From an uncultured Chloroflexia bacterium (GTDB taxonomy: Bacteria; Chloroflexota; Limnocylindria; Limnocylindrales; CSP1-4): a stretch of 64,000 bases of DNA. Of the stretch, positions 2,928-44,831 are shown piece by piece. Under the pieces are notes generated by a model that was not told the origin of the DNA, did no database searches, and saw only the letters and a program-made list of their open reading frames with translations. The position numbers and the translations under genes were made by a program. The DNA is taken from positions 65,850 through 129,849 of the forward strand of contig CAVPEU010000026.1 in NCBI GenBank assembly GCA_963703575.1. The letters run 5' to 3'. Positions within the stretch are counted from its first letter, which is position 1. Every line of letters begins with the position of its first letter.

Positions 2928-4690
2928 CGACGGGCCTCCCCGCCCAGCACGCGGACCTCGATCCCGCCGCTCGGGCGGTCGAGCGCGTGCACCGCGCACG
3001 CGGTGCACGGGTCGAACGAGTGGACGGTGCGCAGGATCTCGAGCGGCTGGGTCGCGTCCGCCACGGGCGTCCCGACCAGCGCCTCCTCCATCGGGCCCCG
3101 GGCGCCCGTCGCATCGCGCGGGGAGGCGTTCCACGTCGTCGCGTCCACCACCTGGTACCGCCGGACGACCCGGTCGCGGATGGTGACCCAGTGCCCGACC
3201 GCTCCCCGCGGGCCTTCGCCCAGCGACCACCCTTCGGCGGTGTCGGGCCAGGTCGACGGATCCCAGCGGCTCAGGTCGGCAACGGCGAGGTCCCCGGTCG
3301 ACAGGCTCGACTTGAGCTCCCGCAGCCAGCCGTCGGCTCGCCTGACGACGATGCTGGTCTCGACGGCCTTGGCCACGATCCGGCCCATCGTGCTCACCAG
3401 CCCGTCCGGCGACATGCCGACGGCGGTCATCGCGGTGCCGAGCGCCGACTGCGCATCGGTGTACCCGTCCGCGTAGGCCACCAGCAATCGCGCGAGCGGT
3501 CCCACCTCCATCGGCCGGCCGTCGTAGCGGGGCGCCTTGATCCAGCTGTACTGCGCCGATCCCTCCAGGGAGGTGACCGGCAGCGCCGGGCCCGAGTACA
3601 GGGGGCTGGTCTCGCCCGCGGCCGGGTGGCGGAGCGTCGCGATACCCTCCTGGTCCGTGTACCAGGCGTTGGCCACGGTCTCCGCCACGGCCTGCTGGTC
3701 CACGCTGTCCACGGCGGCCAGCCCCGGGGCCGCGACGCGGCCGCGCGGCAGGTAGAGCGAAGGCTTCGCACCGTCGCCCTCGGGGAACTCCCCGTAGGAG
3801 AGGAACCGCCCGACCCCGGCCCCGATGCCGGTCCAGTCCGGGTAGGCCTTCGCCAGCGCCAGCACGTCCGGCAGGAACAGCTGGTCAACGAAGGTCAGGG
3901 CGGCGTTCGTGAGGTCGTCCACGATCCTGAGGCCGGCCTCGCTCAGGGCCATGGGTGCGTCGTGCTCCGGCACGGGTGGGTGGGTACCCGGCCCGAGGGG
4001 ACCGCCCCATACCGGCGACAAGGTCATGCCGCCCACGAGATACGACTGCGGGTGCGGGTCCCGGCCGCCCAGCAGCGCATGGATCCGCATGTACCCGCGC
4101 TGCCAGTTCAGGGCCTCGAGCCCGTGCGCCAGGAGCAGCAGGTCCTGCTCCGGCGACAGCCGGTAGGCCGGGTGACCCCAGTAGCCGTTCGCGTACGGTC
4201 CGCCCTGCCCGGACGCCATCGCCGCCGAGAGGCGGTCGCGGATGCCGCTGAAGTAGTCCGGGCTGGACTGCGGCCAGCCGCCGAGCGAGCGAGCGAGCGT
4301 CGAGGTGGCCGCCGGGTCGGCGCCGAGCGCCGCCTCCGCATCGACCCAGTCGGGCAACTGGGCGAGGTAGAACTGGACGACGTGGTCGCGCACCAGCTGC
4401 GTGGCGGCCAGCAGGTTGCGGATGAGCCGGGCGTTGGTGGGGATCGTCACGCCCAGCGCACGCTCGACGGCGCGCACCGAGGCCAGCGCATGCACGCCGG
4501 TGCAGGTGCCGCAGATGCGCTCGGCCACCATCCAGGCATCCCGCGGATCGCGGTTCCGAAGGACGAGCTCGATGCCCCGGAACATCGTGCCGGAGCTCCA
4601 TGCGTCGGTGACCGTTCCGCCGGTGACCTCCGCCTCGACGCGCAGGTGGCCGCCGACACGCGTGACGGGATCGATCGCCATGCGCGCCAT
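2924..4690 (-). CDS. hupL: [NiFe] hydrogenase large subunit (group 1, membrane-bound uptake type)
   Basis: The N-terminal Ni-binding motif is RICGTCTGVH and the C-terminal motif is DPCTACAVH. The true start is MARMAIDPVTRVGGHLRVEAEV (ATG 4690..4688), 1 nt after the small-subunit stop. Confidence 0.9.
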   Translation of the reverse strand: MARMAIDPVTRVGGHLRVEAEVTGGTVTDAWSSGTMFRGIELVLRNRDPRDAWMVAERICGTCTGVHALASVRAVERALGVTIPTNARLIRNLLAATQLVRDHVVQFYLAQLPDWVDAEAALGADPAATSTLARSLGGWPQSSPDYFSGIRDRLSAAMASGQGGPYANGYWGHPAYRLSPEQDLLLLAHGLEALNWQRGYMRIHALLGGRDPHPQSYLVGGMTLSPVWGGPLGPGTHPPVPEHDAPMALSEAGLRIVDDLTNAALTFVDQLFLPDVLALAKAYPDWTGIGAGVGRFLSYGEFPEGDGAKPSLYLPRGRVAAPGLAAVDSVDQQAVAETVANAWYTDQEGIATLRHPAAGETSPLYSGPALPVTSLEGSAQYSWIKAPRYDGRPMEVGPLARLLVAYADGYTDAQSALGTAMTAVGMSPDGLVSTMGRIVAKAVETSIVVRRADGWLRELKSSLSTGDLAVADLSRWDPSTWPDTAEGWSLGEGPRGAVGHWVTIRDRVVRRYQVVDATTWNASPRDATGARGPMEEALVGTPVADATQPLEILRTVHSFDPCTACAVHALDRPSGGIEVRVLGGEARR

Positions 4691-4691
4691 G

Positions 4692-5927
4692 TCAGCGCAC
4701 CTCCGGGACAGCGGGCCCGGCAGGCTCCGGCTCGGGCGCCACGGCCTCGACCTCGGGCGCCACGGCCTCGGCGGGCGCCTCCGCCTCGGCGGGCGCCTCC
4801 GCCACGGCAGCCGCCCCCTCCGGCGCGCCGGCGAGCGCGACCGCAGCCCGTCGATCTGCCGCATCACGCCGTTTTCGGACGACGGTCATGCCCGCGCCAT
4901 GGAGCACCGCAAGACCGCCGACCCCGCCGACCAGCGCCGCGCCGACCAGGTCGGCCGTCAGGCCCGGGAACGCGGGCACCGGCGAAGGGAGCCGCAGGTA
5001 GAACGGGCTCATCGCGTCCCAGAAGCCGGGCATCGTGCAGCCGATGCAGCCGTGCCCGGCGCGCACGGGCCAGCTCGTGCCCTGCGCGAAGCGCTTCGAC
5101 GCGCAGTTGCCGAACGCCTCGGGGCCCTTGCACCCCATCTTGTACAGGCACCAGCCCTTCTGGGCGCCCTCGTCACCCCAGGACCGGACGAACTCGCCGA
5201 ACTCGAAGTGGGGCCGCCGTTCGCACTCGTTGTGGATCAGCATCCCGTACGCGAACAGCGGGCGACGCATCATGTCGGTCGCCGGCCACTCCTTGAACGC
5301 GAGGTAGTGGACGATCGTGGCGACCAGGTTCTCGACGTTCACCGGGCAGCCGGGAAGCGCGATCGTGGGCGTGTTCGAGACGACCTCGCGCAGGCTCGCG
5401 CTGCCGGTCACGCCACCCCCGGCGCCGGGCACGCCTCCGTCGAACGCGCACGCCCCGACCGCGATCGTCGCGAGGGCACCGTTGGCCACCTCGCGCACGA
5501 TGTCCACGAACGGCCGCCCGCCGACCAGGCAGAAGGCGCCGCCGGCCGCGGTCGGGATGCCGCCTTCCACCACGACGACGTACCCGTCCGGGTACCGCTC
5601 CATCGCGCTCGTCAGGGACAGGTCCGTCGCGGCGCCGGCCGGGGCCATCAGCGTCTCGTGGTACTCGAGCGAGAGGATGTCCAGCAGCAGCGAGGCGGTC
5701 GAGGGGTCCGGCGCCCGGAGGAAGGCCTCCGTCTCACCGCCGCAGTCCTGGCCGCGCAGCCAGATGACGGGCAGCCGCGGCGCCGTCTCCACCGCCTTCG
5801 CGATCCGCGGCGCGTACGCGGCCGGCAGGGCAAGGGCGGCCGTCATCGCGGTCGTGAACTGGAGGAATGCGCGGCGGGACATCCCGCGCCGAACCAGCGC
5901 GGCATAGATCCCGTCGTCTGCCATCAC
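4692..5927 (-). CDS. hupS: [NiFe] hydrogenase small subunit with Tat signal peptide
   Basis: SRRAFLQF is a twin-arginine motif. The Fe-S cluster cysteine pattern (GCxGC..., CIGCT) is present, followed by a C-terminal TM anchor and an Ala/Pro/Glu-rich repetitive tail. Confidence 0.9.
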   Translation of the reverse strand: MMADDGIYAALVRRGMSRRAFLQFTTAMTAALALPAAYAPRIAKAVETAPRLPVIWLRGQDCGGETEAFLRAPDPSTASLLLDILSLEYHETLMAPAGAATDLSLTSAMERYPDGYVVVVEGGIPTAAGGAFCLVGGRPFVDIVREVANGALATIAVGACAFDGGVPGAGGGVTGSASLREVVSNTPTIALPGCPVNVENLVATIVHYLAFKEWPATDMMRRPLFAYGMLIHNECERRPHFEFGEFVRSWGDEGAQKGWCLYKMGCKGPEAFGNCASKRFAQGTSWPVRAGHGCIGCTMPGFWDAMSPFYLRLPSPVPAFPGLTADLVGAALVGGVGGLAVLHGAGMTVVRKRRDAADRRAAVALAGAPEGAAAVAEAPAEAEAPAEAVAPEVEAVAPEPEPAGPAVPEVR

Positions 5928-6183: not shown

Positions 6184-6258
6184 TGGTGAGCCGGCAGGGA
6201 TTCGAACCCTGAACCTAGTGATTAAGAGTCACTTGCTCTACCGTTGAGCTACCGGCCC
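6184..6258 (-). tRNA. tRNA-Lys (anticodon CTT)
   Basis: The reverse complement folds as a cloverleaf: acceptor GGGCCGG/CCGGCTC, anticodon arm AGTGA-CTCTTAA-TCACT, T-arm GGTTCGAATCC, and an encoded CCA. Confidence 0.8.
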
Positions 6259-29403: not shown

Positions 29404-30414
29404 TCAGCGGCGCTGCGCGACGATCGCGGAGGCGCCCGATGGCAGGTCGATCAGCTCTGGCGCCGGCACGTCCGCGGCCGCGAACCAGCCCAGGGCCTCG
29501 GATCGGGTGACCAGCCGGGTTCCCTGGAGCAGCTCGTCCAGCTGCATGCCCGCGATCAGCTCCGCGTGACGCGTTCGCAGCTCGTCGGGGTCCGACGGCA
29601 GGTACCAGTCCAGCGCCACCAGCCAGCCCCCCGGCCGCACGGCCGCCCAGGCGGAGCGGATCGCCGCCGCCGGGTCCGGGAGCTGGTGGAGCGCGTACTG
29701 GAAGTAGGCGAGCTGGACCTCGCCCTCGTGGCCGACGGCATCGACATCGCCCTGCTCGATCGTGATCCGGCCGGCCAGCCCGGCCGCCTCGACGTTGGCG
29801 CGCGCCCGGGTCACGGAGTCCGGCTCGAACTCCACGCCGGTCAGCACGACCTCCGGGAAGCGGCGCGCCATCGCCAGCAGCCACCGACCACCACCGCAGT
29901 GGACATCCAGCACCCGCTCGCCCGGACGCAGGTCCGCGACCAGCTGGGGCAGCGCCGCGAGGACCTCCTGGAAGAACACCGCGATGTCCTGGACCGTGAG
30001 CCGCTCGATCGCCGCGCGATACCGGTCCGGGCGCCCGGTGACCGGCCGGCCGGTCCGGAACACGTCCACCAGGCTGCCGTAGTCCAGGCTGCCCGTGGCC
30101 GCGTGGAGGTACTGGCCTCCGAGGTACTCGGCGCGATCGGCGTCCAGGAGCACCGCGGCGACGTCCTCGGGCATGTGGAGCCGGCCCTCGCCGATCTCCA
30201 GGAGGTCGTGCGCGTCGGCGCCCCAGGCCCAGCTGTCGACCAGCCGGGCCTCGGTGCCGGTCGCCGCGGCCAGCTCCTCGACCGTCAGGCCGGTACGCCC
30301 GGCGGCTCGCAGCCGCTCGAACAGCCCGAGCTCCAGGCCGACGTACACCAGCCACGTCCGGTAGAAGCCTCCCAGGCTGGCGACCAGGTCATCGAAGCGG
30401 TCGTCGAGGCTCAT
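29404..30414 (-). CDS. Class I SAM-dependent (O-)methyltransferase with N-terminal winged-helix dimerisation domain
   Basis: VLDVHCGGGRWLLAMA is motif I. A plant-OMT-like N-terminal HTH is present. Confidence 0.7.
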   Translation of the reverse strand: MSLDDRFDDLVASLGGFYRTWLVYVGLELGLFERLRAAGRTGLTVEELAAATGTEARLVDSWAWGADAHDLLEIGEGRLHMPEDVAAVLLDADRAEYLGGQYLHAATGSLDYGSLVDVFRTGRPVTGRPDRYRAAIERLTVQDIAVFFQEVLAALPQLVADLRPGERVLDVHCGGGRWLLAMARRFPEVVLTGVEFEPDSVTRARANVEAAGLAGRITIEQGDVDAVGHEGEVQLAYFQYALHQLPDPAAAIRSAWAAVRPGGWLVALDWYLPSDPDELRTRHAELIAGMQLDELLQGTRLVTRSEALGWFAAADVPAPELIDLPSGASAIVAQRR

Positions 30415-30538
30415 GCCCCGATTGTGACATGCGCGTGAGCCGCAAGGAACATGCTAGCGGCAAGTAACACGTAGTGGCTCGGAGGTGCTACGATCCGGCC
30501 AGCTTCCCCTCCGCCTATCGCCCGGAGCCAACCTCGCA

Positions 30539-32608
30539 ATGCAGATGCTCGCCCGCCCCATCGGTCTCGGTCTCGCCGCCCGCGGCGACGTGGATGAGGT
30601 CACCGGCTGGGCGAAGCAGGCCCGTGACGGCGGCCTCGACTCCGTCTGGGTCCACGACAGCTACTTCGAGCGCGACGGCGTCAGCTTCACGACGGCCATC
30701 GCGCAGGCCATCGCTGCCGAGGACGACGGTGACGAGGCGGGCTTCCGGGTCGCCCTGGGGGCCGTGAACCCGTTCACGCGCCATCCGGTCGTGCTGGCGA
30801 TGACCGGCTCCGCCCTGGACGAGATCCTGCCCGGGCGCATCGTGATGGGGATCGGCACCGGCCTGCCCCTCCGCCTCAGGCAGATGGGGATCCCGTACGA
30901 CCCCGACACCGCCATCGAGGTCGTGTCCGGGGCGATGGACCAGATGCGCGCCCTGTGGGCCGGCGAGCGGCTCCCGTCCGCGACCCCGGGACTGCCGCCC
31001 ATCCAGCCGATGTTCCCGCCCACCCACCGGATCCCGCTCGTGATCGCGGCCTATCGCAAGGCGTTCGTGGAGCTGGCCGGCCGCAAGGCCGACGGCTACC
31101 TCGCCCGACCGGCGGAGTCGATCCCCTCCCTGGGCGGGATCATCGAGCGGCTCCGGGCATCCGCCGAGGCCGCCGGGCGCGATCCCCTGTCGATCGAGAC
31201 CGCGGGCTACCTCCTGTCGCTCGTGGACAAGACGCGGCGCGAGGCACTGAACCGGGCGAAGCGCGAGCCGTTCGTGATCTACATGATGGCCATCCTGTCG
31301 GATGTGTCCCTCCAGCGCGCGGGCTTCGACGCGGAGCTGCGCGACCGGATCGCCGCGGCCTGGCGGGTCGAGGACTACACGACGGCGGGCAACCTCATCC
31401 CGGACGAGCTGCTGGACGCGTTCATGCTGTGCGGCACCCGCGAGGACGTCGCCGCGGGCGCGATGGCGTTCCACGCGCGGGCGGGCCTCCAGCTGCCGTT
31501 GCTCCAGCCGGTGCTCCAGGAGGACCGGCAGATCGAGGAGCTGATCGCCGCCGCCGCGGTCTACGCGCAGGTCGCGCAGGCTGCCCCCGCCCGCGAGCCG
31601 GGCGTGGCGGCGACCGTGTCCGCCTCCGGCGCGCCGGAGGCCGGGAGCGGCGCCCTAGCCCCCTCCCTCGCGGACGATCGGACCCTCGGGTCCGGCGAGC
31701 GCCTCCGGCGGCGAGCGGGCGCGCTGTGGGAGATCCTGCGGCCGTTCGCGTTCACGGCCTCGATCGTCCCCGTCCTCGCCGGCAGCGCCCTGGCCTGGGC
31801 GGATGGCCTGTGGAGCTGGCCACCGTTCGTCGCCGCCCTCGTCGCCGGGGTGCTCCTGCACTCCGGGACCAACATCGTCAACGAGGTGTACGACGTCCGG
31901 AAGGGCATCGACACGATCACCAGCCCACGCGCCAGCCACGCCATCGTGGAGGGACGCATGAGCGAGCGAAACGCGCTGGTCGCCGCGGCGGTCGCGTTCG
32001 CGCTGGCCACCGCCGTGGGCGTGTACCTCGCCTGGCTGCGGGGCCCCGCCATCGTTGCCCTGGGGCTCCTCGGGCTCGTCGCCGGCTGGGGATACACGGC
32101 GCCGCCGCTCGAGTACAAGAACCGCGCCCTGGGCCTGCCGCTGGTGTTCCTGCTCATGGGCCCGCTGATGACCGTGGGCGGCTACTTCGCCGTCAGCGGC
32201 GCGTGGTCCGGGACCGCGCTCGTGCTCTCGGTCCCGGTGGGACTGCTGGTGGCGGCGATCCTCCACGGCAACGAGTGGCGCGATATCCGCGAGGACACCC
32301 GGGCCGGGATCTCGACGCTGTCCGCCCGGGTCGGGCGGCAGTGGGCGCACTACGGCTACGTGGGCCTGGTCCTGGGCGCCTACATGGTGCTCGCCCTGTC
32401 CGTGATCGCGCGCATCCTGCCGCCGGCGACCATGCTGGCCGTCCTGTCGCTGCCGTTCCTGGCCCAGGTCATCCGCTCGGCGGAGCTGGGGGCCACCGGC
32501 CAAGCGCGCGCGATCGCGATGATCGACCTCCAGACCGCTCGGCTGCACATGACCTTCGGCCTGCTCCTGGTGCTGGGCCTGGTGCTGTCGAGGGTGATGG
32601 GTGGCTAG
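30539..32608 (+). CDS. In-frame fusion of an LLM-class (F420/flavin-dependent luciferase-like) oxidoreductase to a UbiA/MenA-family aromatic prenyltransferase
   Basis: Residues 1-340 carry the LLM TIM-barrel (GLDSVWVHDSY..., GIGTG). A roughly 45 aa Ala/Pro/Gly linker follows. Residues 390-690 have 8-9 TM helices with NIVNEVYDVRKGID (NDxxDxxxD-type) and a second Asp-rich region. No stop separates the two parts. Confidence 0.6.
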   Translation: MQMLARPIGLGLAARGDVDEVTGWAKQARDGGLDSVWVHDSYFERDGVSFTTAIAQAIAAEDDGDEAGFRVALGAVNPFTRHPVVLAMTGSALDEILPGRIVMGIGTGLPLRLRQMGIPYDPDTAIEVVSGAMDQMRALWAGERLPSATPGLPPIQPMFPPTHRIPLVIAAYRKAFVELAGRKADGYLARPAESIPSLGGIIERLRASAEAAGRDPLSIETAGYLLSLVDKTRREALNRAKREPFVIYMMAILSDVSLQRAGFDAELRDRIAAAWRVEDYTTAGNLIPDELLDAFMLCGTREDVAAGAMAFHARAGLQLPLLQPVLQEDRQIEELIAAAAVYAQVAQAAPAREPGVAATVSASGAPEAGSGALAPSLADDRTLGSGERLRRRAGALWEILRPFAFTASIVPVLAGSALAWADGLWSWPPFVAALVAGVLLHSGTNIVNEVYDVRKGIDTITSPRASHAIVEGRMSERNALVAAAVAFALATAVGVYLAWLRGPAIVALGLLGLVAGWGYTAPPLEYKNRALGLPLVFLLMGPLMTVGGYFAVSGAWSGTALVLSVPVGLLVAAILHGNEWRDIREDTRAGISTLSARVGRQWAHYGYVGLVLGAYMVLALSVIARILPPATMLAVLSLPFLAQVIRSAELGATGQARAIAMIDLQTARLHMTFGLLLVLGLVLSRVMGG

Positions 32609-33299
32609 CGGCGACGATGGCCCCGATCTGCCCGGGGTGACTCGCCGCGTGGCGCCCGGGGCGCTCGCGGTCGGGCTCGTCGCGGCGCAGGCGGCGTTCG
32701 CGGCGACGTTCCGCGGCCCGCGCGAGCGGTTCTGGACGCGGATGACGTACACCGGGCTCGGGCTGGGCTCGCTCGCGCTCGCCGCCAGCCCGCCGGCACG
32801 CCGGCTGCGGATCGGGCCGAAGGAGGTCGGGCTCGGCCTCGTCTCGGCCGGGACCCTGTACCTCACGTTCAAGGCCGGCGACGTCTTCGCCCGCCGGTTC
32901 GTCCCGCGCGGCGACGCCCAGATCCGGGACATCTACACGCTGCGCACGCTCCGCCCGAAGGAGGAGGTCGCCGCCCGGCTGGCGACGGTCATCGGGCCGG
33001 CCGAGGAGGTGTTCTGGCGCGGCCTCGTCCAGGAGGCGCTGATGGCCCGCTACGGGCGCTGGCCGGGTGCCGCGCTGGCGGCCATGGCGTACGGCGGGGT
33101 CCACATCGTCACCGGCAACTTCACGCTGTTCGGCGCGGCGGGGATCGCGGGCGCGCACTGGTGCACGCTGTACGCGGCGGGGGTCCCGCTGGGTGCGCTG
33201 GTCGTGAGCCACGTGGCCTGGGACGTGTGGATCTTCCTCGTCCAGCCCACGGGCGAGATCACGCCGCTGGCTCCCCTCGACGCGACCACGACCGCCTGA
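32601..33299 (+). CDS. CPBP-family intramembrane glutamic endopeptidase (CAAX protease-like)
   Basis: EEVFWRGLVQ is the EExxxR motif, and conserved His residues lie in FGAAGIAGAHW/SHVAWD. The GTG start overlaps the upstream gene by 8 nt. Confidence 0.7.
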   Translation: MASGDDGPDLPGVTRRVAPGALAVGLVAAQAAFAATFRGPRERFWTRMTYTGLGLGSLALAASPPARRLRIGPKEVGLGLVSAGTLYLTFKAGDVFARRFVPRGDAQIRDIYTLRTLRPKEEVAARLATVIGPAEEVFWRGLVQEALMARYGRWPGAALAAMAYGGVHIVTGNFTLFGAAGIAGAHWCTLYAAGVPLGALVVSHVAWDVWIFLVQPTGEITPLAPLDATTTA

Positions 33300-33330
33300 C
33301 GGGGCCCATGCAACCGGCGGGCCGCCGGGC

Positions 33331-33924
33331 GTGTTGTGGATGGTGATGGACGACGCCGAGCTCACCGAACACCTCGCACGCGACCTCGACGGCTCGTTCG
33401 AGATCCTCGTCCGCGCCCACGTGGATCGCTGCCACGGGATCGCGCTGCGCGTCCTGGGAAACCCGCACGATGCCGAGGAGGTCACGCAGGACGCGCTGGT
33501 CAGGGCCTACCGGGCGCTCGAGGGCTGGCCCCCCGGGCGGATCCGGGAGCTCCGCCTGCGGCCCTGGCTCGCGACGATCGTCGTGAACCTGTGCCGGAAC
33601 CGCGCCCGGCGCCACGCGCCGCCGACGACGCCGCTGGCGCCGCTGGTCGAGGCCGGCGCCGAGCCGGCCGCGGATGCGGCCGGGGACCCGGACCGCCAGG
33701 CGGCGCGCGCGGCCGAGCGCGAGCAGCTGGCGTCGCTCCTCGCCGGGCTGCCGGACCGCTACCGCGTGCCGGTCGTCCTGCGCCACGTGGACGGCCTCTC
33801 GTATGCCGAGCTGGCCGAGGCCCTCGGCCGGCCCGAGGGAACGCTCAAGGCCCAGGTCCACCGGGGTCTCGCGCTCCTGCGGGAGGCCGCTGCCGGGACC
33901 GAGCTCGAGGAGCTGATCGCATGA
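33331..33924 (+). CDS. ECF (sigma-70 family) RNA polymerase sigma factor
   Basis: The sigma-2 region reads AEEVTQDALVRAYRAL. The sigma-4 region reads VLRHVDGLSYAELAEALGRPEGTLKAQVHRGL. Confidence 0.8.
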   Translation: MLWMVMDDAELTEHLARDLDGSFEILVRAHVDRCHGIALRVLGNPHDAEEVTQDALVRAYRALEGWPPGRIRELRLRPWLATIVVNLCRNRARRHAPPTTPLAPLVEAGAEPAADAAGDPDRQAARAAEREQLASLLAGLPDRYRVPVVLRHVDGLSYAELAEALGRPEGTLKAQVHRGLALLREAAAGTELEELIA

Positions 33925-34727
33925 CTCGAAACGCCTGCCTTGCCGACGACGCCGCCGGGGGCCTCTCGTCGCTGGCCGTCCCCGCGCCCGCCCACGTCGC
34001 CGAGGACGTGCTGGCCGAGGTGGGCCTGGCCGACCGCATGGCGCCGATCGAATCGCCGCTCGGGACGGTGTGGGTGGCCTGGAACGGCCGCGGCGTATCC
34101 GAGGTCGTGCTGGCCGAGGACGGCCCGTCCGCCGCGGCCCGCCACGAGACGCGGGTCGGGCGCCGGACGTCGCCGGCGGCGTCCCTGCCCCCGACCCTGG
34201 CCGACGCCGTCTCGCGGCGCCTCGCCGGGGAGCGGCGCGTGCGCATCCCGCTGGACCTGCGCGGCCGGTCCGGGTTCGAGGTCGTCGTGTGGACCAAGGC
34301 GCTGGACATCCCGCGCGGCGAGGTCCGGCCATACGGCTGGATCGCGGCGGAGATCGGGCGGCCGAAGGCGGTCCGGGCCGTGGGCACGGCGCTCGGACGC
34401 AATCCGGTGCCGCTCGTCGTCCCGTGCCACCGCGTCGTGCGCACGGACGGGTCGATCGGCCAATACAGCCTGGGCGGTCCCGGCAACAAGCGGGCCATGC
34501 TGGCGGCCGAGGGGCTGGACCCCGACGCGCTCGAGGGCGCCGCGCGGCGCGGGGAGCGGCTGCTCGCGTCCGCGACCACCGGGATCGTGTGCTGGCCGAC
34601 GTGCCGCAACGCGAAGCGCATCGAGGCTCGCAACCGGGTGCCGTTCCGCACGCTTCGCGAGGCGACCGCCGCCGGCTACCGTGCCTGCCGGGTCTGCCGC
34701 CCGACGGCGATCTCGGTCGCGGCCTGA
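33921..34727 (+). CDS. Methylated-DNA-[protein]-cysteine S-methyltransferase (Ogt/MGMT) with a C-terminal Ada-type Cys4 zinc domain
   Basis: The PCHRVV active site is present. The C-terminal domain VCWPTCRNAKRIEARNRVPFRTLREATAAGYRACRVCRP resembles the Ada methylphosphotriester-repair Zn domain. Its ATG overlaps the sigma-factor stop (ATGA). Confidence 0.75.
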   Translation: MTRNACLADDAAGGLSSLAVPAPAHVAEDVLAEVGLADRMAPIESPLGTVWVAWNGRGVSEVVLAEDGPSAAARHETRVGRRTSPAASLPPTLADAVSRRLAGERRVRIPLDLRGRSGFEVVVWTKALDIPRGEVRPYGWIAAEIGRPKAVRAVGTALGRNPVPLVVPCHRVVRTDGSIGQYSLGGPGNKRAMLAAEGLDPDALEGAARRGERLLASATTGIVCWPTCRNAKRIEARNRVPFRTLREATAAGYRACRVCRPTAISVAA

Positions 34728-34740
34728 GGCGGTCCCGCGA

Positions 34741-35946
34741 TCAGCCGGGGCGCTGGAACCCCTGTGCCGGCCATGGCTCGCAGCGCAGGGGCCGGTCCTC
34801 GCGGTATCCCAGCGCATAGTCCGCCTGGATCAGCGTGTGCAGCTGGCTCGTGCCCTCGTAGATCACGGCCGCCTTCGCGTTCCGCAGGTAGCGCTCCACG
34901 GGGAACTCGTTGCTGTACCCGTTGGCGCCGTGGATCTGGATCGCGTCCAGCGCCGCCTGCACCGAGTGCTCCGTGGCATGCCACTTGGCGAGCGAGGTCT
35001 GGCGCGTGTTGCGCAGGCCCTGGTTCTTGAGCCAGCCCGCCTGGAACACCAGCAGCCGCCCGATCTCGACCCCCTTGGCCATGTTCGCGATCATCTGCTT
35101 GACCAGCTGGTGCCGGCCGATCTCCTGGCCGAACGTCCGGCGCTCGTGGGCGTACCGCAGGGACGCGTCGAGGCACGCCTGGCCGAGGCCCACGGCCCCG
35201 GCGGCGACCGTGTAGCGCCCCTGGTCGATCGCGCTCATCGCGACCAGGAAGCCCTCGCCCTCCTCGCCGATCCGGTTCTCGACCGGCACCCGCACGTCCT
35301 CGAAGTTGACGAGGCCGGTGTTCCCGGCCCGGATCCCGAGCTTGCCGTGGAGCGTGCCGGTGGTGAGGCCCGGCATCCCGCGCTCGACCATGAACGCGGT
35401 GATGCCCTTGTGCCGCTTCTCGCGATCCAGCGTGGCGAACACGAGGAAGTGGTCCGCGATGTCCGCCAGCGAGATCCAGATCTTGCCGCCGTTGAGGACG
35501 TAGGAGTCCCCGTCCCGGCGCGCCGTCGTCGCCAGGTTCGAGGCGTCCGTGCCGACGCCCGGCTCGGTCAGCGCGAAGGTCCCCAGCTTGTCGCCCTTCG
35601 CCTGGGGCACGAGCCAGCGCTGCCGCTGCTCCTCCGTCCCCCACTGGAGCAGCGTGAGCGAGTTCAGCCCCACGTGCACGCTCTGGACGACCCGGAACGC
35701 GGTGTCGGCACGCTCCAGCTCCTCGCACAGCAGCGCGAAGCTGATGTAGTCCATACCGGACCCGCCGTACCGCTCCGGGATCGGCGCGCCCAGGAACCCC
35801 AGCTCGGCCATCCTCGCGAACACCTCGCGGTGGACCTCGCCGCGCTCGTCCCACTCGCGGATGTAGGGCAGGATCTCCGCCTCCGCGAAGGCGCGGGCGG
35901 CGTCGCGCACGAGGCGGTTCTCGTCGCTCAGGCTGAAATCGATCAC
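34741..35946 (-). CDS. Acyl-CoA dehydrogenase
   Basis: LTEPGVGTDASNL, YEGTSQLHTLIQA and a catalytic Glu near the C-terminus are typical ACAD motifs. Confidence 0.85.
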   Translation of the reverse strand: MIDFSLSDENRLVRDAARAFAEAEILPYIREWDERGEVHREVFARMAELGFLGAPIPERYGGSGMDYISFALLCEELERADTAFRVVQSVHVGLNSLTLLQWGTEEQRQRWLVPQAKGDKLGTFALTEPGVGTDASNLATTARRDGDSYVLNGGKIWISLADIADHFLVFATLDREKRHKGITAFMVERGMPGLTTGTLHGKLGIRAGNTGLVNFEDVRVPVENRIGEEGEGFLVAMSAIDQGRYTVAAGAVGLGQACLDASLRYAHERRTFGQEIGRHQLVKQMIANMAKGVEIGRLLVFQAGWLKNQGLRNTRQTSLAKWHATEHSVQAALDAIQIHGANGYSNEFPVERYLRNAKAAVIYEGTSQLHTLIQADYALGYREDRPLRCEPWPAQGFQRPG

Positions 35947-37488: not shown

Positions 37489-37686
37489 TCAGCGGTTGCG
37501 GGCCAGGAAGTTCAGCACGTCCTCGAGGCGAAAGCGACGGTCGCCGCGCTTGCACACGCGGTAGAACGGGAGCTCGCCGCGGTCACCGAGACGCTTCACG
37601 GTGTTGACGTGGAGGTGGAGCATCTCGGCCACCTCGCTCGCGGTGAGCATCGGTCCGAGATCGTTGATCGCCATTGACGCCATCTG
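37489..37686 (-). CDS. Excisionase-family helix-turn-helix DNA-binding protein
   Basis: MLTASEVAEMLHLHVNTVKRLGDRGELPF. The start is uncertain (alternative Met at 37734). Confidence 0.5.
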   Translation of the reverse strand, partial: QMASMAINDLGPMLTASEVAEMLHLHVNTVKRLGDRGELPFYRVCKRGDRRFRLEDVLNFLARNR

Positions 37687-38199
37687 GGGCTTGCCTCTTC
37701 TGACACTGGGAGCTGCCCTGTCCGGGATGGTCACTGCGGTGCGGTCCGGCTGGCTGCTGGGTAGAGTGTCCCGGTGAGGGGCGCGCGAAACAAGCCGTAC
37801 TCTCGTCCAGCCGGTGGTACCAAACCGCCCGTCAGCACCGGGTCATCAGCACCGGGTCATCCGGCCCGCATGCCGGCCCTTGACCAAATCTTGAGCAAGG
37901 CTTGCCTCTTCCCGCGTCGGCTGGCGGGTACATTTCGTCGAACATCCTCAAGTCAGCCGAACCGCTCCAGGAGCATGCGTCCCGATGCCCACGAACGAGT
38001 CCGCCGACCAGGGCCGTGCACGTCGACACGCCCGCCGGCATCCACGACCGCGAACGCCAACCCGACCTTGATCATGGTGGGACCCGGCAGGCGTCGACCC
38101 GGACACGCCGCGACTCGACGCTTCCACGCCCCGCGCGCGACGGCCGGGTCACGGCCGCGCCCCATCGTCACCCCACCCATCCCCTGATCGGAGGGCACC

Positions 38200-44631: not shown

Positions 44632-44707
44632 TAGGAGGTGTGGCGCCCCCGACAGGAATCGAACCTGTGACCTACCGCTTAGAAGGCGGCTGCTCTATCC
44701 GCTGAGC
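44632..44707 (-). tRNA. tRNA-Arg (anticodon TCT)
   Basis: The reverse complement GCCCCCGTAGCTCAGCGGATAGAGCAGCCGCCTTCTAAGCGGTAGGTCACAGGTTCGATTCCTGTCGGGGGCGCCA forms a cloverleaf with complementary acceptor stems and T-arm GGTTCGATTCC. Confidence 0.8.
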
Positions 44708-44831
44708 TACGGGGGCGTCGGTTACCGGCTCAGTCTACGCAGGCGCCCGGGTATCTGACCGCCGGCCGGTTCGATCCCGGCTCTCGACCAATCCGCGACG
44801 GGCGACCGGATTCGCCACCCATCCCGGGCAG

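What the first reader, a model, noticed from the sequence alone, without database searches (positions are those of the whole stretch)
33331..34727. ECF sigma factor translationally coupled to an Ogt-AdaZn bifunctional methyltransferase
The gene that overlaps the ECF sigma stop (ATGA) usually encodes an anti-sigma factor. Here it encodes a cytoplasmic protein with a complete O6-alkylguanine-DNA alkyltransferase domain (PCHRV) and, at its C-terminus, an Ada-type Cys4 zinc domain (CWPTC...CRVCRP). This is the reverse order from E. coli Ada, and the AraC HTH is absent. The alkylation repair protein may act directly as the regulator of the sigma factor, sequestering it until irreversibly methylated. 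That would be an alkylation-sensing ECF circuit. The arrangement could also simply be a co-transcribed repair gene.
Basis: inference. Interest (0 to 1): 0.65.

Follow-up and report, generated by a model that had tools for sequence, protein, structure and literature searches.

The report
Sigma factor paired with DNA-alkylation repair protein
A two-gene unit found in several bacterial phyla couples an alternative sigma factor to a "suicide" DNA-alkylation repair protein that probably doubles as the sigma factor's inhibitor, which would let irreversible repair of DNA damage switch genes on; this is not yet tested by experiment.

Summary
An ECF sigma gene (most likely start ATG 33346, not GTG 33331; stop 33924) overlaps by ATGA a 268-aa gene (33921-34727). 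That gene encodes a two-helix N-terminal segment, a complete O6-alkylguanine alkyltransferase (PCHRV, full catalytic set) and a C-terminal Ada-type Cys4 zinc domain. There is no AraC HTH.

The pair is a conserved module. All 51 related two-domain loci with upstream DNA have this sigma directly upstream, across about 9 phyla. A conserved promoter, TGCAACC-N14-CGTGTT, sits just before the sigma start.

Some homologues carry a canonical zinc-binding anti-sigma domain fused in front of the same repair protein. The window protein's N-terminus aligns to the segment after that zinc motif, which includes the sigma2-binding helix 4.

My best reading (about 0.5) is that the repair protein is the cognate cytoplasmic anti-sigma, inactivated by alkyl transfer. 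No binding, stimulus or regulon has been shown.

The sigma/alkyltransferase neighbourhood is already catalogued without a mechanism (ECF122). I therefore rate this a new variant of a known kind, and of real interest.

The parts
33309..33315 (+). -35 element TGCAACC of the conserved ECF-type promoter
   Evidence: Two-block enrichment gives GCAAC...TGTT in 23 of 50 upstream regions against 0.1 expected. The motif lies directly before the sigma start in 38 of 63 loci. There is one match in the 64-kb window against 0.17 expected.
33330..33337 (+). -10 element CGTGTTGT, 14 nt after the -35. It ends about 8-10 nt before the sigma start codon, so the mRNA is probably leaderless or nearly so (inference).
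   Evidence: In 732 kb of related loci the strict motif occurs only in front of these sigma genes.
33346..33924 (+). ECF sigma factor gene, 192 aa from ATG 33346. The mechanical ORF starts at GTG 33331. Alternative starts are 33340 and 33343.
   Evidence: Pfam Sigma70_r2 and r4_2, and TIGR02937 above its cut-off. The start is inferred from the promoter position and from in-frame stops in relative L002. The closest solved relatives are SigE, SigW and SigH.
33921..33924 (+). ATGA start/stop overlap (translational coupling)
   Evidence: The same -4 overlap occurs in 37 of 50 two-domain loci.
33921..34727 (+). Gene for the 268-aa protein: N-terminal helical hairpin, then O6-alkylguanine alkyltransferase, then Ada-type zinc domain. 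It is the proposed anti-sigma and sensor.
33933..34019 (+). N-terminal two-helix segment (aa 5-33; consensus L..L...AP..L...VL...GL.D). It aligns to the end of helix 3 and to helix 4 of the zinc-binding anti-sigma domains of long homologues.
   Evidence: AF2 helices H5-17 and H26-33. hhalign of short N-termini against ZAS N-termini gives probability 85.7% and E 5e-6.
34032..34514 (+). Alkyltransferase fold: N-lobe aa 38-101 and C-lobe aa 119-198. The alkyl-acceptor is Cys169 in PCHRV (nt 34422-34436).
   Evidence: PF01035 and TIGR00589. Invariant across 50 diverse homologues: Y138, R152, N161, C169, H170, R171, Y182, K190, E197. Fold matches to 1sfe and 4bhb.
34560..34703 (+). Ada-type Cys4 zinc domain (aa 214-261). 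C224 (nt 34590-34592) corresponds to the methyl-acceptor Cys38 of E. coli Ada. C228, C256 and C259 are the other ligands.
   Evidence: PF02805. The four Cys are invariant in 50 homologues. Matches 1u8b and 1adn. The correspondence to Cys38 comes from my own alignment to the E. coli Ada sequence.

Best explanation
The unit is a self-contained, positively autoregulated sigma/anti-sigma switch in which the anti-sigma is a suicide DNA-alkylation repair protein.

Proposed mechanism, step by step (all inferred):
1. The sigma transcribes its own two-gene operon from the TGCAACC-N14-CGTGTT promoter.
2. The ATGA overlap makes sigma and partner in roughly equal amounts.
3. The unalkylated partner holds the sigma inactive. 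Its N-terminal two-helix segment, a remnant of a class I anti-sigma domain that includes the sigma2-binding helix 4, probably takes part.
4. The protein removes an alkyl group from O6-alkylguanine (to Cys169) and/or from a methylphosphotriester (to zinc-bound Cys224).
5. This irreversible modification changes or destabilises the protein and frees one sigma per lesion repaired.
6. Free sigma makes more sigma and more repair protein. The new protein repairs DNA and re-captures sigma, which shuts the loop off.

Shown here: the anatomy, the conservation of the pair, the promoter, the ZAS-fused homologues, and the conservation of both alkyl-acceptor sites.
Inferred: binding, the stimulus, release and the regulon.
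For: 1. Domain anatomy and a confident single-globule model.

2. Conservation of the pair. Among the 80 best genome loci, every two-domain homologue with upstream DNA has a related ECF sigma immediately upstream on the same strand. That is 50 plus L004; only the four loci cut at a contig end lack it. The taxa are Chloroflexota, Acidimicrobiia, Streptosporangiales, Acidobacteriota, Dormibacterota, Eremiobacterota, Methylomirabilota, Binatia, Entotheonella and Rubrobacteraceae. 37 of 50 share the exact -4 overlap. Distances between sigmas and between partners correlate (r = 0.87; 0 of 2000 permutations reach it).

3. Promoter. A conserved ECF-type promoter lies right before the sigma start and nowhere else in 732 kb of loci or in the 64-kb window. 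It fits the self-transcribed promoters usual for ECF sigmas, and such a positive loop needs a brake.

4. ZAS-fused homologues. About 20 of 150 family representatives are longer. Twelve of them have invariant C..H-x3-C-x2-C, and 11 of those 12 hit Pfam zf-HC2, the ZAS anti-sigma finger, fused to the same AGT-AdaZn body. Where a locus was fetched (L025, L046) they also follow an ECF sigma.

5. N-terminal homology. The short-form N-terminus aligns to the segment after the zinc motif, including helix 4 (hhalign probability 85.7%, E 5e-6). Helix 4 is the sigma2 (regions 2.1/2.2) binding element. Class II anti-sigma CnrY works with only two helices (PMC7406223).

6. Sigma-linked AGTs have an N-terminal extension. 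Several unlinked Ogt proteins in the same loci set start directly at the AGT N-lobe.

7. No other sigma, AGT or plausible anti-sigma ORF lies in the window.

8. Both alkyl-acceptor sites and the whole AGT catalytic set are invariant across 50 homologues. The domains are therefore working enzymes, not relics.

9. The ECF literature lists the sigma/MGMT neighbourhood as a candidate non-canonical regulator.
Against: - No physical evidence of binding exists.
- The window protein lacks helices 1-2 and the HxxxCxxC site of a canonical anti-sigma domain, and gives no zf-HC2 hit. A two-helix remnant may not suffice.
- The hhalign support is moderate and covers 35 columns.
- The N-terminal helices are modelled with fairly high confidence. 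They may be packed on the protein rather than free.
- ZAS-AGT fusions could have arisen by fusing an anti-sigma with a downstream target gene. In that case the AGT part would be cargo.
- The Ada zinc domain is absent in some members of the same sigma group (L054, L057, L060), so it cannot be the universal sensor.
- The regulon is unknown. The metagenome promoter scan gave only noise.
- Casas-Pastor et al. stress that conserved neighbours may be targets rather than regulators.
Confidence: 0.5

Rival explanations
1. Co-transcribed output gene only. The sigma is controlled by something else (transcription, proteolysis, or an unlinked anti-sigma). The alkyltransferase is simply the main product of the operon and has no regulatory contact with the sigma.
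For: Both enzymatic sites are fully conserved, so repair is certainly a function. The window protein has no recognisable anti-sigma Pfam domain. The literature warns that conserved neighbours may be targets. Only 64 kb of the genome is visible, so an unlinked regulator cannot be excluded.
Against: It does not explain why homologues carry a ZAS anti-sigma domain fused to this very protein. It does not explain why sigma-linked forms keep a conserved N-terminal segment that aligns to anti-sigma helix 4. It does not explain why the pair keeps a 4-nt overlap across about 9 phyla with no third conserved gene. An autoregulated ECF promoter with no brake would run away.
Confidence: 0.22
2. Anti-sigma, but the signal is not DNA alkylation. 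The protein sequesters the sigma and releases it on thiol oxidation, direct electrophile attack or zinc loss at its cysteine sites, or on regulated proteolysis. DNA repair is then a separate job.
For: ZAS domains in the long forms are classic thiol and zinc sensors (established for RsrA). The protein has a Cys4 zinc site and a hyper-reactive Cys169 that small electrophiles could hit without DNA.
Against: The short form in the window has lost the ZAS zinc site but keeps the complete DNA-directed catalytic apparatus: arginine finger R152, Y138, N161 and the recognition helix. The Ada zinc domain is dispensable in some lineages. Selection has kept an enzyme that reacts with lesions in DNA.
Confidence: 0.13
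3. Split-Ada co-activator. After self-methylation the protein does not release the sigma. It stays with it, or binds promoter DNA through the neutralised zinc domain, and stimulates transcription. The sigma then supplies the sequence-specific DNA reading that the AraC HTH supplies in E. coli Ada.
For: It has the same two alkyl-acceptor modules as Ada but lacks the HTH. In E. coli Ada, methylation of Cys38 raises DNA affinity (PMC10779285). Methylated Ada contacts sigma70 region 4 (my own knowledge, not checked here).
Against: ZAS-fused homologues point to inhibition, not activation. The Ada zinc domain is missing in some members of the same sigma group. No conserved upstream operator-like element was noticed beside the -35/-10.
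Confidence: 0.1

Closest known systems
ECF122-type sigma factors (Casas-Pastor et al. 2021, PMC7826278; de Dios et al. 2022 review, PMC8999054)
   Same: An ECF sigma with no recognisable anti-sigma, whose conserved neighbour is a 6-O-methylguanine DNA methyltransferase. It is listed as 'unknown mechanism'.
   Different: Whether the window sigma belongs to ECF122 could not be tested. The actinobacterial sigmas next to Ogt-only proteins (L066-L082) may be ECF122 proper, whose published example is from Cellulomonas. They are only 21-29% identical to the window sigma, no closer than unrelated ECFs, and their partners' N-termini are not detectably related. In the papers read here I found no description of the Ada zinc domain, the ZAS-fused forms, the helix-4-like remnant or the TGCAACC-N14-CGTGTT promoter for this pairing.
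E. coli Ada (adaptive response regulator)
   Same: One polypeptide carries an Ada-type Cys4 zinc domain and an O6-alkylguanine alkyltransferase. Both are irreversible alkyl acceptors, and the protein is linked to transcription of its own gene.
   Different: The domain order is reversed and there is no AraC-type HTH. The NCBIfam Ada equivalog scores 111 against a cut-off of 345. Output would go through a separate ECF sigma, and probably by release of an inhibitor rather than by DNA-bound activation.
Cytoplasmic zinc-binding (ZAS) class I anti-sigma factors, e.g. RsrA/SigR, ChrR/SigE, RslA/SigL
   Same: A soluble partner encoded immediately after an autoregulated ECF sigma and translationally coupled to it. 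Long homologues of the window protein carry a true zf-HC2 domain. The window protein keeps the segment that aligns to helix 3-4.
   Different: The window protein lacks helices 1-2 and the HxxxCxxC site. Its putative sensor is an enzyme that reacts with DNA lesions, not a redox-sensitive zinc site.
Split Ada systems: B. subtilis AdaA/AdaB, M. tuberculosis AdaA-AlkA plus Ogt
   Same: Alkyl-acceptor modules are rearranged among polypeptides relative to E. coli Ada.
   Different: Those systems keep the AraC HTH with the zinc domain as the transcription factor. No sigma factor is involved.
Class II anti-sigma CnrY
   Same: A minimal two-helix inhibitor that covers sigma4 and sigma2. It is a precedent showing that two helices can suffice.
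   Different: No sequence relationship was tested or claimed. CnrY is membrane-linked and part of a metal-sensing complex.

Membership tests
ECF (group IV) sigma-70 factors | Sigma2 and sigma4 domains present, sigma3 absent, and a score above the family cut-off | tested here: met
   PF04542 and PF08281, with no region 3. TIGR02937 scores 85.8 against a cut-off of 42.9.
ECF122 group | A 6-O-methylguanine DNA methyltransferase gene conserved next to the sigma, and no canonical anti-sigma | tested here: met
   The AGT gene is at +1 with ATGA overlap. No zf-HC2 or other anti-sigma domain is in the neighbours.
ECF122 group | Sequence membership (group HMM or position in the ECF Hub tree) | not testable with these tools
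   The group model and the reference sequence WP_057211282.1 are not available here. The window sigma is 21-29% identical to the actinobacterial Ogt-only-linked sigmas and 38-42% identical to the Streptosporangiales, Nocardiopsis and Actinokineospora ones.
O6-alkylguanine-DNA alkyltransferase (AGT/Ogt) | PCHR(V/I) active site with the Cys-His-Glu network, arginine finger, Asn hinge, and the two-lobe fold | tested here: met
   PF01035 E 6e-29 and TIGR00589 at 89.5 against 46.4. Invariant C169, H170, R171, E197, R152, N161, Y138. Fold match to 1sfe and 4bhb.
O6-alkylguanine-DNA alkyltransferase (AGT/Ogt) | Alkyl-transfer activity | not testable with these tools
   Needs a biochemical assay.
Ada (bifunctional regulator, NF011964 equivalog) | N-terminal zinc domain, then AraC-type HTH, then C-terminal AGT, with a score above the equivalog cut-off | tested here: not met
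   Score 111 against a cut-off of 345. No HTH_AraC or HTH_18 hit, and the order is reversed.
Ada_Zn_binding domain (PF02805) | Four zinc-ligand cysteines (C-x3-C ... C-x2-C) and the N-Ada10 fold | tested here: met
   37.3 bits against a cut-off of 23. C224, C228, C256 and C259 are invariant. 1u8b matches at rmsd 1.8 A and 43% identity. 1adn matches at E 6e-6.
Class I anti-sigma domain, zinc-binding type (ZAS, zf-HC2 PF13490) | H-x3-C-x2-C motif with an upstream Cys or His, in a three-helix bundle followed by helix 4 | tested here: not met
   The window protein has no motif and no Pfam hit. Only the segment aligning to the end of helix 3 and to helix 4 is present. Long homologues do meet it (11 of 12).
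Anti-sigma factor (functional class) | Binds its sigma and blocks association with core RNA polymerase | not testable with these tools
It needs an interaction or transcription assay.

The most novel reading that the evidence does not exclude
This is a stoichiometric 'lesion-counting' sigma/anti-sigma switch. Each irreversible alkyl transfer from damaged DNA to the anti-sigma (Cys169 of the alkyltransferase and/or zinc-bound Cys224) destroys one inhibitor molecule and frees one ECF sigma. A suicide DNA-repair enzyme is then itself the sensor domain of a new class of cytoplasmic anti-sigma factor. This would be the adaptive response to alkylation in Chloroflexota, Acidimicrobiia, many Actinomycetota, Acidobacteriota and candidate phyla that lack an E. 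coli-type Ada. It would have evolved in parallel at least twice, because a second, unrelated ECF group is paired with Ogt-only proteins.
Probability: 0.4. Interest if true: 0.85.

Novelty: new variant of a known kind. Interest (0 to 1): 0.66.

Why it matters
Ada is the textbook case of a repair protein turned into a transcription factor by its own irreversible methylation. How most phyla outside Proteobacteria and Firmicutes induce alkylation repair is largely unknown.

If this module works as proposed, three things follow.
- The same chemical logic would be wired into the sigma/anti-sigma mechanism instead of a DNA-binding activator.
- It would give a mechanism to an ECF group type that the field lists as 'unknown'.
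- It would add a new kind of soluble anti-sigma, one that current searches cannot recognise.

It would also be a compact, orthogonal two-gene sensor with a defined promoter that responds to DNA alkylation, which could be useful for reporters. The hypothesis can be tested directly with a handful of constructs.

Tried and rejected
1. Modelling the sigma/partner complex.

2. Natural sigma-AGT single-chain fusions as Rosetta-stone evidence. P0142, P0239 and P0264 turned out to be multi-frameshift artefacts with Arg/Pro-rich off-frame stretches.

3. Finding the regulon from the promoter.
- Only the operon's own site occurs in the window and in 732 kb of related loci.
- A metagenome-wide scan with TGCAACCG-N13-CGTGTT gave 120 stretches, of which only 3 were sigma promoters.
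- Three recurrent hits (L105, L114, L161) lie inside a conserved membrane-protein coding sequence that I judged EamA-like by eye, so they are not promoters.

4. A longer upstream start for the second gene, overlapping the sigma gene. The frame is open, but its translation is off-frame Arg/Gly/Pro-rich sequence without any anti-sigma motif. The ATGA junction is conserved.

5. The resemblance of the N-terminus MTRNACLADD to E. coli Ada MKKATCLTDD, which might have hinted at a permuted zinc domain. Close relatives lack the Cys and the motif, so it is coincidence.

6. Homology of the N-termini of the actinobacterial Ogt-only group to the window-type N-terminus or to ZAS domains. hhalign found nothing.

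7. AidB-like role for the convergent acyl-CoA dehydrogenase downstream. It is an ordinary 401-aa ACAD on the other strand, and relatives have other genes between it and the pair.

8. Literature searches for an experimentally studied sigma/alkyltransferase pair found none. Huang et al. 2015 was not available, and no supplements are held for Casas-Pastor 2021.
Full report
**1. What is in the sequence**

The window is 73.5% G+C. Its closest relatives are MAGs labelled Chloroflexota / Candidatus Limnocylindrales.

On the + strand an ECF sigma ORF ends at 33924. A 268-aa ORF starts at ATG 33921, so stop and start overlap as ATGA.

The sigma has Sigma70_r2 and Sigma70_r4_2 and no region 3. It passes the NCBIfam ECF superfamily cut-off.

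The second protein has PF01035 (aa 119-198, PCHRV at 168-172) and PF02805 Ada_Zn_binding (aa 214-261, with C224-x3-C228 and C256-x2-C259). It has no AraC-type HTH. The NCBIfam Ada equivalog is far below its cut-off (111 against 345).

An AlphaFold2 model built on 50 diverse homologues is confident (pLDDT 94.6, pTM 0.87). From N to C it shows:
- two helices (aa 5-17 and 26-33);
- the AGT N-lobe;
- the AGT C-lobe;
- a small zinc domain.

Foldseek matches the body to E. coli C-Ada (1sfe, E 9e-12) and M. tuberculosis OGT. It matches the tail to the methylated N-Ada/DNA complex 1u8b (rmsd 1.8 A over 51 columns, 43% identity). Sequence searches of the PDB agree.

**2. A correction and an addition**

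Upstream of the sigma lies TGCAACC (33309-33315), then 14 nt, then CGTGTTGT (33330-33337).

This two-block motif is strongly enriched in the upstream regions of the related sigma genes: GCAAC...TGTT occurs in 23 of 50 regions against 0.1 expected. It sits immediately before the sigma start in 38 of 63 loci from several phyla. A relaxed form of the motif occurs once in the 64-kb window against 0.17 expected. A strict form occurs nowhere in 732 kb of related loci except before these sigma genes.

The mechanical ORF start GTG 33331 lies inside the -10 element. Relative L002 has two in-frame stop codons at that place. The real start is therefore most likely ATG 33346 (MDDAELTEHL), or 33340/33343. 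The -10 ends only about 8-10 nt before it, so the transcript is probably leaderless or nearly so (inference).

No sigma-70-type promoter or intrinsic terminator was detected in 33150-35000.

The neighbours are unrelated in function:
- upstream, a CPBP/Rce1-like membrane protease and a luciferase-like/UbiA fusion;
- downstream, a convergent acyl-CoA dehydrogenase and an aminotransferase.

The window holds only this one ECF sigma, one AGT, and no credible zinc-finger anti-sigma ORF.

**3. The pair is a conserved module**

The two-domain architecture is common in metagenomes. About 6000 proteins match at E <= 1e-5 among the candidates scored, and the top 120 all carry PF01035 + PF02805. There are 194 clusters at 50% identity with E <= 1e-30.

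In close relatives on megabase contigs the sigma precedes the gene with the same 4-nt overlap, while the flanking genes differ.

I examined the 80 best loci from one genome per species. Every locus that encodes the two-domain protein and has upstream DNA carries a related ECF sigma directly upstream on the same strand. That is 50 loci including the window, plus L004. The only exceptions are four loci cut at a contig end.

The taxa are Chloroflexota (Limnocylindria, Ktedonobacteria), Acidimicrobiia, Streptosporangiales (Nonomuraea, Actinomadura, Spirillospora, Streptosporangium), Pseudonocardiales, Rubrobacteraceae, Acidobacteriota, Dormibacterota, Eremiobacterota, Methylomirabilota, Binatia and Entotheonella.

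37 of 50 loci have exactly the -4 overlap. Pairwise distances of sigmas and of partners correlate (r = 0.87; 0 of 2000 permutations reach it). The two genes therefore travel as a unit. This does not by itself prove contact.

Plain Ogt genes in the same search have no sigma upstream, even when searched with a profile built from the linked sigmas. Several of them start directly at the AGT N-lobe.

**4. Evidence that the repair protein is the regulator**

About 20 of the 150 family representatives are 30-57 residues longer at the N-terminus. Twelve of them have an invariant Cys3 ... His29-x3-Cys33-x2-Cys36, and 11 of those 12 hit Pfam zf-HC2, the zinc finger of ZAS class I anti-sigma domains (6 of 50). 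Behind that domain they have the same AGT-AdaZn body with all catalytic residues. Where a locus is available (L025, L046) they too follow an ECF sigma. Those proteins are therefore anti-sigma factors by homology and context, with an alkyltransferase where other anti-sigmas carry a sensor domain.

The window protein is a short form. Its N-terminal consensus is L..L...AP..L...VL...GL.D. A profile-profile comparison aligns it to the stretch that follows the zinc motif in the long forms, that is the end of helix 3 and helix 4 (probability 85.7%, E 5e-6, 35 columns).

According to Casas-Pastor et al. 2020 (PMC7406223):
- helix 4 binds sigma2 regions 2.1/2.2, the surface that binds the beta-prime clamp helices;
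- helix 4 carries most of the co-evolutionary signal between ECF sigmas and class I anti-sigma domains;
- the class II anti-sigma CnrY inhibits with only two helices.

A conserved promoter of the kind ECF sigmas use for self-transcription, together with translational coupling and the absence of any other candidate, is the usual signature of a sigma and its cognate anti-sigma.

**5. What the sensor would be**

Across 50 homologues of 36-62% identity, including the ZAS forms, two sets of residues are invariant:
- the complete AGT catalytic set: Y138, R152, N161, C169, H170, R171, Y182, K190, E197;
- the four zinc cysteines: C224, C228, C256, C259.

Both modules are therefore kept as working alkyl acceptors. 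By my alignment to E. coli Ada, C224 corresponds to Cys38, the methylphosphotriester acceptor whose methylation switches Ada on (mechanism summarised in PMC10779285).

Three members of the same sigma group have the same promoter and N-terminal motif but lack the zinc domain altogether: L054 (Acidimicrobiia), L057 (Nocardiopsis) and L060 (Actinokineospora). The constant core is thus the N-terminal hairpin plus AGT, and the Ada zinc domain looks like a second, accessory input.

From established knowledge, not tested here: alkylation of the AGT active-site cysteine perturbs and destabilises the protein in human and archaeal enzymes. This offers a plausible route to sigma release or degradation of the inhibitor.

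**6. Proposed mechanism**

1. Unalkylated protein, made about 1:1 with the sigma, holds it inactive.
2. Alkyl transfer from O6-alkylguanine (Cys169) and/or a methylphosphotriester (Cys224) is irreversible and inactivates the inhibitor.
3. Freed sigma transcribes the operon from TGCAACC-N14-CGTGTT, and possibly other genes.
4. Fresh protein repairs DNA and re-sequesters sigma.

Shown here: the anatomy, conservation, promoter, ZAS-fused homologues, and conservation of both acceptor sites.
Inferred: binding, stimulus, release and regulon.

I put this at about 0.5. The rivals are:
- a mere co-transcribed output gene (0.22);
- an anti-sigma that senses something other than DNA alkylation (0.13);
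- a 'split Ada' co-activator (0.10).

**7. Comparison with what is known**

The ECF classification of Casas-Pastor et al. 2021, as summarised by de Dios et al. 2022, lists ECF122 as a group without an anti-sigma whose conserved neighbour is a 6-O-methylguanine DNA methyltransferase. The mechanism is given as unknown and the example is from Cellulomonas. The 2021 paper cautions that such neighbours may be regulators or targets.

A 2023 review of alkyltransferases does not mention sigma factors. Full-text searches found no experimental study of such a pair.

So the association is catalogued but unexplained. Added here are:
- the Ada zinc fusion;
- the ZAS-fused relatives;
- the helix-4-like remnant;
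- the promoter;
- the phyletic breadth.

I could not test whether the window sigma belongs to ECF122. Actinobacterial Ogt-only proteins (L066, L070, L072, L074, L076, L078-L082) also follow an ECF sigma, usually with a -4 overlap. Those sigmas are only 21-29% identical to the window sigma, no closer than unrelated ECFs. Their partners' N-termini show no similarity to the window type or to ZAS domains. There seem to be at least two separate sigma/AGT pairings.

The protein is not an Ada orthologue, because a defining feature was tested and not met. It is a true AGT with a true Ada-type zinc domain. It does not itself meet the definition of a ZAS anti-sigma domain.

**8. Verdict**

I rate it a new variant of a known kind: an ECF sigma with a soluble cognate inhibitor, where the inhibitor's body is a suicide DNA-repair enzyme. 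Interest is about 0.66, because the hypothesis is specific, widespread across poorly studied phyla, and testable with a few constructs.

Noticed in passing
L066, L070, L072, L074, L076, L078-L082 (match at about 5001-5480; sigma at about 4350-4895): Actinobacterial Ogt-only proteins of about 200 aa (Mycobacterium sp., Amycolatopsis, Nocardia, Arthrobacter, Ornithinimicrobium and others) also sit right after an ECF sigma, often with a -4 overlap. That sigma group is different (21-29% identity to the window sigma). Their conserved N-terminus (L.RLH.RL...A...GLLDVAYRT) is unrelated by hhalign. This looks like a second, possibly independent sigma/alkyltransferase pairing, perhaps the catalogued ECF122.
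   Followed up: partly
L054 3765-4353; L057 4976-5531; L060 4907-5480: These are members of the window's own sigma group, with the same promoter and N-terminal motif, whose partner ends after the AGT domain. tblastn finds no Ada zinc domain anywhere in the locus.
   Followed up: yes
window 32601-33299 (+): A CPBP/Rce1-like intramembrane protease gene ends 10 nt before the -35 element. The same gene precedes the pair in L002 but not in L001. It is probably only synteny, although relatives of this protease family process some membrane anti-sigmas.
   Followed up: partly
window 30485-32608 (+): A single 707-aa ORF joins a luciferase-like monooxygenase (aa 32-331) to a UbiA-family prenyltransferase (aa 427-661). 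This is an unusual fusion.
   Followed up: no
window 37489-37734 (-): A small excisionase/MerR-type HTH_17 protein (E 2e-12). It may mark the edge of an integrated element. The nearest tRNA genes are far away (44641-44716 and 6184-6258).
   Followed up: no
L058 and L063 (ORF upstream part of the AGT match at about 5001): The AGT ORF appears to carry an N-terminal Phd/YefM antitoxin-like segment (PF02604, E 3e-6, below the gathering score). The start codon was taken mechanically, so these could be two adjacent genes.
   Followed up: partly
L001 6813-6947; L002 6816-6976: In close relatives an EamA transporter gene follows the pair. The spacer holds a sigma-70-like TTGACT-N18-TACACT with a palindrome (CAACTTGGCCTAGTTGAC) conserved between the two loci. 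The window lacks this gene.
   Followed up: no
P0142, P0239, P0264 (metagenome proteins): These apparent single-chain sigma-alkyltransferase fusions in the protein databases are products of several frameshifts across the overlapping gene pair. Such entries could mislead domain-architecture surveys.
   Followed up: yes
window 29404-30414 (-); L001 4294-5310 (-); L002 3618-4628 (-): A SAM-dependent methyltransferase gene is conserved a short distance upstream of the pair, divergently oriented, in the window and in both close relatives.
   Followed up: no
P0165, P0167, P0169, P0182, P0229 (N-terminal 60-80 aa): A further set of long homologues has a helical N-terminal extension without the HxxxCxxC motif and without any Pfam hit. 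This is possibly another kind of sigma-binding module on the same AGT-AdaZn body.
   Followed up: partly
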